Below, piece after piece: positions 23,123-24,399 of a DNA stretch of 64,000 nt. The stretch is from Tubiluchus corallicola (taxonomy: Eukaryota; Animalia; Priapulida): the NCBI GenBank assembly GCA_030141605.1, contig JAQGDQ010000765.1, forward strand, positions 1-64,000, written 5' to 3'. Made by a program: the position numbers and the translations under genes. How positions within the stretch are numbered: the stretch's first letter is position 1; every line of letters starts with the position of its first letter. The notes beneath the pieces were generated by a model. It did no database searches and had not been told where the DNA came from. It saw only the letters and a program-made list of their open reading frames with translations.

Positions 23123-24399
23123 TCACGTTATTTTGTCTAAATTTAAGTTAATAACGTAATCTGATTTTGAATGTTTGACACTTCCTTCAATGGCCCACTG
23201 AGACGTTAAGGGTTCACTTGAAATGCTGTGCTTGGAGTCAGAATGGCTTGTTGGCTCTTGAGATGACATCCCTGCTATTATCTGCTTCATTTGACAGACA
23301 TTTTGCTCCTCATTGTCATCATAAACGTGCGCTTCATTTATAATACTGTGTTTTGAAGTCACTTTGGCGACTTTATGTGCACCTGAGCTTTGCTTGCTAG
23401 TGCAGCTTAACAAACTTTGTCGACTTTTAGACTTACTCATTGGTTTTGGTACACTTTTCATTGGTGGTGGAACCCACCCTTCCAATTTCTTCTTCTGGAA
23501 GTTTCTCCAACATTTTTGAATTACTGCAGCACAGTAGATATGTCGTCGTCTTTCCAGCAGAGAAGATACCGGTTCGTAATTTATTACAGTTGGTTTTTCG
23601 GTAGTGAATTCTCCTAGATCATCTGTAGTACCTAAAAAATTTTTTGTTAGTGCATCAAGAATATCAACGCAGTGCATTCGATCCTGTGAACATATCGTAA
23701 TATCCATTAAAACCAGCTTAAATTTGTTTGGTTTAGGAACGCGTAAAGGTTCCTCAAGCGAATCGACAAAGTCATATAACTGATCTAATTGAATAAAATG
23801 TGTTCCTTTCACATCATATTTTTCCCATTTTTCATAGTACATATCAAAGTCATCATCTGTTAGGCCTTGCTGGACGTCCTCCTGCGCTTGCGAGAAGTTT
23901 TCCAGTATCACAGCTATGTACATATTAATAACAATGAGAAACGTTATAACAAGATATACAACTAAAAACATGACAGCAACACCAGAATTTCCACAATCAC
24001 CTCCAAATTCATTTTGTGGTGTAGTGTTGTTACAGTCTGGTGGTTCAATAGAGAGCCCTGCCAACACACCATTCCATCCAGCAGATGTAGAAACTTGAAA
24101 CAGCACTAACATACTTCGACCAAATGTCTGAAAATTCATTACATCATCAAGACCATACATAGGTTTAGTCCACAAGAAGAAGCCCATTCCGAAAGTGCTA
24201 AAAATGAACATGATTAGAAACAACAACATGGCAATATTGAAGAGAGCAGGTATTGACACAGCAAGCGCGAACAATAACGTTCGAATTCCTTGGGCACCTT
24301 TTATTAGTCGAAGAATGCGCCCTATTCTAGCAACGCGAATCACTCTGATTAGTGTAGGTGAAACAGGAAAGTTTTGCATCAGATCAGCTAACGCCAGAC
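23123..24399 (-). CDS. para: Nav terminal exon: DIV S4-S6, EF-hand-like domain, IQ motif, tail
   Basis: [63 protein letters not shown] stop. Confidence 0.97.

What the first reader, a model, noticed from the sequence alone, without database searches (positions are those of the whole stretch)
24062..24120. DIV pore loop matches three of four garter-snake TTX-resistance states (L, V, N)
Seen: [18 protein letters not shown], with AAT (Asn) at 24071-24073 where Nav1 channels normally have the outer-ring Asp (WDG). Known: sensitive snake Nav1.4 reads SIICLFEITTSAGWDG, the resistant Thamnophis sirtalis allele has I1556L, I1561V, D1568N, G1569V, and insect para reads SMILLFQMSTSAGWDG. This channel has L, V and N at the first three positions while keeping DEKA. 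Inference: a TTX/saxitoxin-resistant Nav1, perhaps from a toxin-bearing or toxin-exposed animal. The D->N change is the strong signal; L and V sit at more variable sites.
Basis: partly seen in the sequence, partly recalled or inferred. Interest (0 to 1): 0.8.

Follow-up and report, generated by a model that had tools for sequence, protein, structure and literature searches.

The report
Invertebrate sodium channel lacking toxin-binding aspartate
An intact, spliced nerve-type sodium-channel gene of an invertebrate, likely a priapulid worm, has asparagine instead of aspartate at a pore position where that change is predicted to weaken block by saxitoxin strongly and by tetrodotoxin moderately; the same change recurs in many invertebrates, so the match to resistant garter snakes is likely an old lineage trait plus partial coincidence rather than a fresh arms race.

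Summary
Observation confirmed. An intact Nav1 gene (19 exons, DEKA filter) on the minus strand has L, V and N at the garter-snake positions 1556, 1561 and 1568. The AAT codon is not an error. It is unchanged in contigs from four samples, including two relatives about 92-95% alike and a spliced contig, so there is no fixed A-to-I recoding. Published mutants suggest 30-60-fold less TTX block and far less saxitoxin block; the other domains keep toxin-sensitive residues. The adaptive reading is weaker. The nearest orthologue (74% identical) already has N, but not L or V. N occurs in 9 of 97 invertebrate Nav1 loops, changes at least 10 times on my tree, occurs in a click beetle, and is the norm in Nav2. 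It is already reported in 7 of 22 nemerteans. L+V+N together is unique in my sample (chance estimate 0.07-0.8% given N), but V is worth only about 2-fold and I found no measured effect for L. The tree gives a protostome outside arthropods and the mollusc/annelid/nemertean clade; earlier scan notes say priapulid. The scan had not noted this feature on other DNA. New member of a known kind.

The parts
24059..24115 (-). Domain IV pore loop (P1 helix, filter Ala, P2 helix) of the Nav1 alpha subunit
   Evidence: aligns without gaps to the same loop of the two best solved-structure hits, a Nav1.6 (25ih_A) and a Nav1.2 (6j8e_A)
24071..24073 (-). AAT, Asn at the DIV outer-ring site (snake 1568, rat Nav1.4 1532); Asp in most Nav1
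   Evidence: unchanged in X1, X2, X3, X5, X6
24107..24109 (-). TTA, Leu at snake position 1556
   Evidence: P0215 has Ile
24092..24094 (-). GTT, Val at snake position 1561
   Evidence: P0215 has Ile
24080..24082 (-). Ala of the DEKA selectivity filter (DIV)
23123..24399 (-). Terminal coding exon: DIV S3 end, S4-S6, C-terminal tail and stop
   Evidence: splice joint to the exon ending at 25751 seen in the X6 contig (skips 1351 nt, GT-AG)
25751..26125 (-). Exon with the DIII-DIV linker (MFM inactivation motif) and DIV S1-S3
29474..29672 (-). Exon with the DIII pore loop: filter Lys (29663-29661), then Ile (29654-29652, not the resistant Thr) and Glu (29651-29649, the snake D1277E state, common in invertebrates)
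   Evidence: codon places counted from the model
49340..49522 (-). Exon with the DII pore loop: filter Glu (49435-49433) and outer-ring Glu (49426-49424), both the sensitive state
   Evidence: codon places counted from the model
60976..61120 (-). Exon with the DI pore loop: filter Asp (61002-61000), aromatic Tyr (60999-60997, sensitive state), outer-ring Glu (60993-60991)
   Evidence: codon places counted from the model
23123..62232 (-). Nav1 gene as far as modelled in the window: 19 exons, 18 GT-AG introns, 1756 codons open to the stop. The N-terminus and DI S1-S4 were not found in the window and presumably lie beyond its right end.

Best explanation
This is an intact, spliced Nav1 sodium-channel gene of a non-arthropod protostome (likely a priapulid) whose domain IV outer ring has Asn instead of Asp, which is predicted to remove a toxin contact, weakening saxitoxin block strongly and tetrodotoxin block moderately, and which likely is an old lineage state rather than a recent snake-like adaptation. 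Shown: the gene structure, DEKA, the L/V/N states, their fixation in four samples, splicing without fixed recoding, N in the sister sequence, and recurrence of N across invertebrates. Inferred from vertebrate mutants: loss of the DIV carboxylate costs about 2.4 kcal/mol for TTX (about 57-fold) and 6.2 kcal/mol for STX (about 35,000-fold). V adds perhaps 2-fold; L and the DIII Glu add little. Because DI Tyr, DII Glu and DIII Ile are the sensitive states, TTX should still block, roughly in the high-nanomolar to low-micromolar range. A lower single-channel conductance is a likely cost. L and V most likely differ from the sister lineage through ordinary aliphatic drift on a long branch.
For: Gene model. 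Codon checks. Purifying pattern against X5: 31 synonymous and 7 non-synonymous of 38 changed codons. Sister P0215 has N with I and I (support 100 with the site masked). N in 9 of 97 and non-Asp in 23 of 97 collapsed invertebrate loops. At least 10 changes for N and 24 for charge among 150 scored rows. WNG in the click beetle Ignelater (P0110) and WNS in the oyster Saccostrea cucullata (P0073). N in 29 of 29 parsed Nav2-type rows. D1538N in 7 of 22 nemerteans (PMC12732450). Effect sizes: PMC2852835, PMC4209135 (D->N 30-40-fold, I->V 2-fold). Conductance cost of N-containing mutants: PMC10723449.
Against: L+V+N together was seen in 0 of 97 other invertebrate loops. Only 1 of 47 conserved-Ile columns of this protein became Leu, and it is this one. 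The estimated chance of L and V on top of N is 0.07-0.8%, which leaves room for real convergence. DIII also matches the T. atratus D1277E state, though Glu is in 16 of 58 invertebrate contexts. Effect sizes come from vertebrate backbones; PMC12732450 warns that equal substitutions need not give equal resistance and quotes 40- to 300-fold for TTX. 'Old' rests on one unnamed sister fragment. The phylum is not established by my own data.
Confidence: 0.62

Rival explanations
1. True stepwise convergence under toxin selection. N came first in the lineage, and V and L were then selected on top of it for more resistance or to compensate, as in garter snakes. The animal would eat or live among saxitoxin or TTX sources.
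For: The triple is unique among 97 loops, with an estimated chance of 0.07-0.8% given N. L, V and N are all kept in relatives about 92-95% alike. I->V has a measured 2-fold effect. DIII Glu matches a second snake allele.
Against: I found no measured effect for L alone. L occurs with Asp in 3 of 14 vertebrate loops. The strong resistance sites in DI, DII and DIII are untouched. The site was picked out because it matched, from a scan of very many windows. Searches linking priapulids to either toxin found nothing relevant in titles or abstracts.
Confidence: 0.17
2. The substitution has little effect on toxin block in this backbone. It is tolerated variation at a site where Asn is the normal Nav2 state, perhaps tuning conductance, proton block or selectivity, and the channel stays toxin-sensitive.
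For: N is universal in the parsed Nav2-type rows (29 of 29), and the site changes charge at least 24 times on the tree. Docking did not support a simple lost-bond model (PMC9698786 abstract and introduction). TTX makes no direct contact with this Asp in the Fozzard-Lipkind model.
Against: D->N lowered TTX affinity in every mutagenesis figure I read (30-40-fold, 40-fold, about 300-fold) and STX affinity far more. A review attributes TTX resistance in several invertebrates to lost outer-ring charge (PMC4436565).
Confidence: 0.15
3. This is a specialised paralogue, and another Nav1 copy with Asp carries most of the animal's toxin-sensitive current, so the organism is not resistant even if this channel is.
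For: X1 holds a second contig at similar depth (179 versus 186) that is 81% alike over 26032-26127. Its four listed differences fall at third codon positions of the DIII-IV linker by my hand count, and it leaves the exon at a donor-like site that this gene lacks.
Against: That contig may be the Nav2 gene. No second DIV exon laid at 80% or more in X1, and none lies in the window. Reviews say invertebrates usually have one Nav1.
Confidence: 0.06

Closest known systems
Nemertean Nav1 with D1538N (7 of 22 species; PMC12732450, text parts 1-2 of 5 and supplement part 1 of 2 read)
   Same: Same residue change at the same DIV site in an invertebrate Nav1 with DEKA; likewise predicted from vertebrate mutants and not measured
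   Different: This channel is not a nemertean Nav1 on my tree (AU p 0.026 against grouping) and adds L and V. I could not see the nemertean DIV sequences because the supplement cells are cut at 400 characters, so whether one of them also has L or V is open.
Thamnophis sirtalis Nav1.4 LVNV and T. atratus Nav1.4 EPN (PMC10723449 and PMC4209135, passages read)
   Same: L, V and N at 1556, 1561 and 1568; E at 1277
   Different: G1569 is unchanged and position 1281 is Asp, not Pro. The snake alleles are local, recent and tied to toxic prey. Here N is unchanged in all four samples and shared with a 74% identical orthologue.
Hapalochlaena lunulata Nav1 (P0002, DIV WHS) and invertebrates said to be TTX-resistant through lost outer-ring charge (jellyfish, flatworms, pulmonates, Varroa, sea squirts; PMC4436565 passage citing Du et al. 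2009, which was not held)
   Same: Neutralised DIV outer-ring Asp
   Different: The octopus has His-Ser there. This channel lacks the DIII Thr that accompanies resistance in the octopus and the mite.
Unnamed orthologue P0215
   Same: Sister sequence, 74% identical; shares the unusual stretch before the pore loop and the Asn
Nav2 (DEEA) channels
   Same: Asn at this DIV site in 29 of 29 parsed rows
   Different: The window has Lys in DIII and lies inside Nav1 with full support

Membership tests
Nav1 voltage-gated sodium channel | Four homologous pore domains in one open frame | tested here: met
   All four pore loops lie in one 1756-codon model with 18 GT-AG introns; DI S1-S4 were not found in the window
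Nav1 voltage-gated sodium channel | DEKA selectivity filter | tested here: met
Nav1 voltage-gated sodium channel | Hydrophobic inactivation triplet in the DIII-IV linker | tested here: met
   MFM at model position 1212; that this is the invertebrate form of the motif is recalled
Nav1 voltage-gated sodium channel | Groups with Nav1, not Nav2 | tested here: met
   Inside a protostome Nav1 clade, SH-aLRT 100; 25 rows, 1301 columns
Target-site TTX/STX-resistant Nav | Neutralised DIV outer-ring Asp | tested here: met
   Asn
Target-site TTX/STX-resistant Nav | Other strong sites: DI aromatic lost, DII E->D, or DIII ->T | tested here: not met
   DI Tyr, DII Glu and DIII Ile are kept; sites as listed in PMC12732450
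Target-site TTX/STX-resistant Nav | Measured rise in IC50 | not testable with these tools
   needs expression and voltage clamp
Garter-snake LVNV allele type | All four states L, V, N, V | tested here: not met
   3 of 4; Gly kept at 1569
Garter-snake LVNV allele type | Recent, polymorphic within species, tied to toxic prey | tested here: not met
   Unchanged in 4 of 4 samples that cover the codon (S1-S4), and N is shared with P0215; contigs drop rare variants; diet not testable
Priapulida (host assignment) | Nav1 groups with a named priapulid Nav1 | tested here: inconclusive
   No priapulid Nav1 among the listed hits (best 120 each; proteins over 2000 aa not searched). Grouping with arthropods is not rejected (p 0.49); grouping with annelids (0.015) and nemerteans (0.026) is rejected; grouping with rotifers has support 8. 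The label comes from earlier scan notes.

The most novel reading that the evidence does not exclude
A little-studied phylum (priapulids by the earlier notes; a chaetognath is not excluded by my tree) carries a lineage-wide saxitoxin-proof Nav1, and one branch then walked the same I->L and I->V steps as resistant garter snakes. That would be a three-residue convergence between a worm and a snake, and a natural test of whether L and V add resistance or compensate for the conductance cost of N.
Probability: 0.15. Interest if true: 0.6.

Novelty: new member of a known kind. Interest (0 to 1): 0.3.

Why it matters
If the prediction holds, it adds a phylum-level lineage with no Nav1 pore data in my searches to the list of animals with a neutralised DIV outer ring, and it shifts the question from TTX to saxitoxin. 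More usefully, the survey shows that this so-called resistance state is common background in invertebrate Nav1: about one loop in ten has N and one in four lacks Asp. Finding it is therefore weak evidence of toxin ecology. The pair window (L, V, N) versus P0215 (I, I, N) is a ready-made natural contrast for testing what L and V do.

Tried and rejected
Sequencing error: rejected. Fixed A-to-I recoding of AAT to GAT: rejected for the one spliced contig. All 24 qualifying X6 differences are listed, none lies at 24071-24073, and the codon is 30-32 letters from the contig end; partial editing cannot be seen in contigs. An alternative Asp-bearing DIV exon in the window: none found. Pseudogene: rejected. 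Host identification: no whole genome is held. Three homologue searches and one representative search gave one relative at 73-74% (P0215) and nothing else above 69%. None of the 10 unnamed proteins looked up carried a name. The ESM Atlas gave no result. 89 ORFs left of the gene gave no informative Pfam hit. The mixture-model tree did not finish, so the trees are FastTree or LG+G4, which can misplace long branches. The run search listed no holder on record as RNA; X6 was added by species label and its RNA status is the tool's guess, supported only by the splice joint. X4 does not cover the codon. My first guesses of annelid or nemertean were rejected by AU tests; grouping with molluscs was not tested; chaetognath was neither shown nor excluded. 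Du et al. 2009 (PMC2797157) and Feldman et al. 2012 (PMC3311348) were not held. PMC13125697 passages gave nothing on L or V. No structure prediction was run, because no toxin ligand is offered and it would not decide affinity.

Full report
1. Observation. The minus strand at 24115-24062 encodes [18 protein letters not shown] inside a 431-codon open frame. Codons: Leu 24109-24107, Val 24094-24092, filter Ala 24082-24080, Asn AAT 24073-24071, Gly 24070-24068. The frame matches solved Nav channels (best E 2.8e-116), and WNG aligns to WDG. PMC10723449 (passages) prints the sensitive snake register 1556-ICLFEITTSAGWDG-1569 and the alleles LVNV and EPN.

2. The gene. tblastn with homologues and splice-site inspection gave 19 exons from 62232 to 23123 with 18 GT-AG introns and 1756 open codons. 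The linker exons are less certain than the membrane exons. The filter is DEKA and the outer ring is E-E-I-N. DI keeps Tyr next to the filter Asp, DII keeps its outer Glu, DIII has Ile rather than Thr, and the linker has MFM. No second DIV exon lies in the window.

3. Is the codon real? Six runs were listed and all six were laid, X1 and X5 twice. X1 (possibly the source), X2 (same sample), X3 (another sample and study; 2 differences in the 457-nt piece) and X5 (third sample; 18 differences in the 375-nt piece, depth about 4) cover the codon without change. X4 does not cover it. X6 (fourth sample) has a 470-nt contig with 22 differences that jumps the 1351-nt last intron at the predicted GT-AG sites and reads the L, V and N codons unchanged. 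So the gene is spliced in a close relative and N is not fully recoded. Of X5's 48 differences, 39 were listed; they touch 38 codons, 31 synonymous and 7 not.

4. How unusual are the states? Among the 240 best hits of the terminal exon, 237 loops parsed: D 194, S 22, N 13, A 5, H 3. After dropping the one fish and collapsing at 90% (236 of 239 parsed, 97 left): D 74, N 9, S 9, H 3, A 2. Position 1556 is I in 88 and L in 0. Position 1561 is M 45, I 40, T 8, V 3, L 1. No row has two snake states. The collapse hid two further N rows in the insect clade, one of them WNG in the click beetle Ignelater luminosus (P0110). On a DIV tree with the site masked (152 rows, 150 scored), N needs at least 10 changes and loss of charge 24; weak branches may inflate these counts. 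In Nav2-type rows N is present in 29 of 29 parsed, of 37. In a mostly vertebrate set (54 of 78 parsed, 14 after collapse), L1556 occurs with Asp in 3. DIII Glu is in 16 of 58 invertebrate contexts. As a within-protein control against 20 references, the window keeps Ile in 43 of 47 conserved-Ile columns (Leu once, at this site) and has Val in 32 of 83 variable aliphatic columns. That gives a rough 0.07-0.8% chance of L and V on top of N. This is uncommon, but the site was chosen because it matched. These samples are best-hit lists, biased to annelids, molluscs and arthropods.

5. Relatives and host. The only close relative is the unnamed P0215 (74% identical, sister with support 100). It has N, with Ile at both other sites. 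N therefore probably predates the split, and L and V are probably later, since Ile is the common state at 1556 and one of the two common states at 1561. IQ-TREE (LG+G4, 25 rows) places the channel in protostome Nav1 (100), outside arthropods (100) and outside the mollusc/annelid/nemertean clade (99). AU tests reject grouping with annelids (p 0.015) and nemerteans (p 0.026) but not with arthropods (p 0.49). Earlier unreviewed scan notes on the same genome call it a likely priapulid. My tree is compatible with that but does not show it, and no priapulid Nav1 appeared among the listed hits.

6. Mechanism. PMC2852835 (passages) gives D1532N a loss of 2.4 kcal/mol for TTX and 6.2 for STX, because STX's second guanidinium contacts this Asp. 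At 25 C that is about 57-fold and 35,000-fold. PMC4209135 (passages) gives 30-40-fold for D->N, 2-fold for I->V, about 600-fold for the full snake isoform, and minor changes for replacements at the DIII Asp. PMC12732450 quotes 40- and about 300-fold. PMC10723449 found 29-54% lower unitary conductance in N-containing mutants. The prediction is a Na-selective channel that is moderately TTX-resistant and strongly STX-resistant, with possibly lower conductance. All of this is carried over from vertebrate backbones, and PMC12732450 cautions that such transfer can fail.

7. Comparison with what is known. The change itself is known: 7 of 22 nemerteans (PMC12732450), snakes, and 'a frequently altered residue' (PMC6259924 passages; PMC4436565 passages). 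PMC9698786 was read in part 1 of 6 and one passage, PMC5660226 and PMC13125697 in passages; all other papers were seen as search listings only. Searches for priapulid with tetrodotoxin (1 paper), priapul with saxitoxin (2 listed), Priapulus with Nav1 (1 paper), priapul/Nav2/DEKA and chaetognath with TTX terms showed no title or abstract on Nav1 pore states in either phylum. I did not open those papers, and subscription journals are not covered. The nemertean supplement's DIV columns could not be read and may hold an L/V/N match. The scan's own notes hold nothing on this feature.

8. Verdict. The feature is real and probably functional as reduced guanidinium-toxin block, more for saxitoxin than for TTX. 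As evidence for a toxin-bearing animal or a snake-like adaptive walk it is weak. N is probably old and certainly recurrent, the strong sites in DI-DIII are unchanged, and L and V have little or no known effect. New member of a known kind; interest 0.3, with a 15% chance of the more striking convergence reading.

Noticed in passing
window 43543-43982 (-): The 3' end of the DIII S3 exon (44111-43938), with its donor site, is repeated into the intron as a decayed array of about 67-bp units: four further blastn matches at 80-93% and 3.4 TRF copies, several with a GTAAGT donor-like site. These are possible decoy or alternative donors.
   Followed up: partly
run X1 record 4, laid on window 26032-26127: A second single-copy-depth locus 81% alike to the DIII-IV linker exon, with a donor-like site right after the linker that this gene lacks: a Nav2 gene or a second Nav1.
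   Followed up: partly
window 59266 versus 59248 (-): A second in-frame AG acceptor 18 nt upstream of the exon that follows the DI pore loop; its use would add six residues behind the DI P2 helix. No RNA cover was tested.
   Followed up: no
window 24200: X2 (same sample as the probable source) and X3 differ from the window by a Phe/Leu change in DIV S5, probably an allele.
   Followed up: partly
window 27275-29009 and 39356-42529 (+): Broken frames inside Nav introns that look like LINE endonuclease and reverse-transcriptase ORFs (family likeness recalled, not scanned). A weak RVT_1 match also lies at 7663-7989.
   Followed up: no
P0110 (Ignelater luminosus); P0067, P0109, P0116 (bdelloid rotifers); P0042, P0108 (Lineus, Mytilus): Neutralised DIV outer ring in a terrestrial click beetle (WNG), in all 10 WSG rows, which include the named bdelloids, and as WSD in Lineus and Mytilus: wide background for a so-called resistance state.
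   Followed up: partly
runs X5 and X6: Both are tied to the same organism label as X1 yet differ from the window by 5-8% in coding exons, which suggests cryptic species or deep populations.
   Followed up: no
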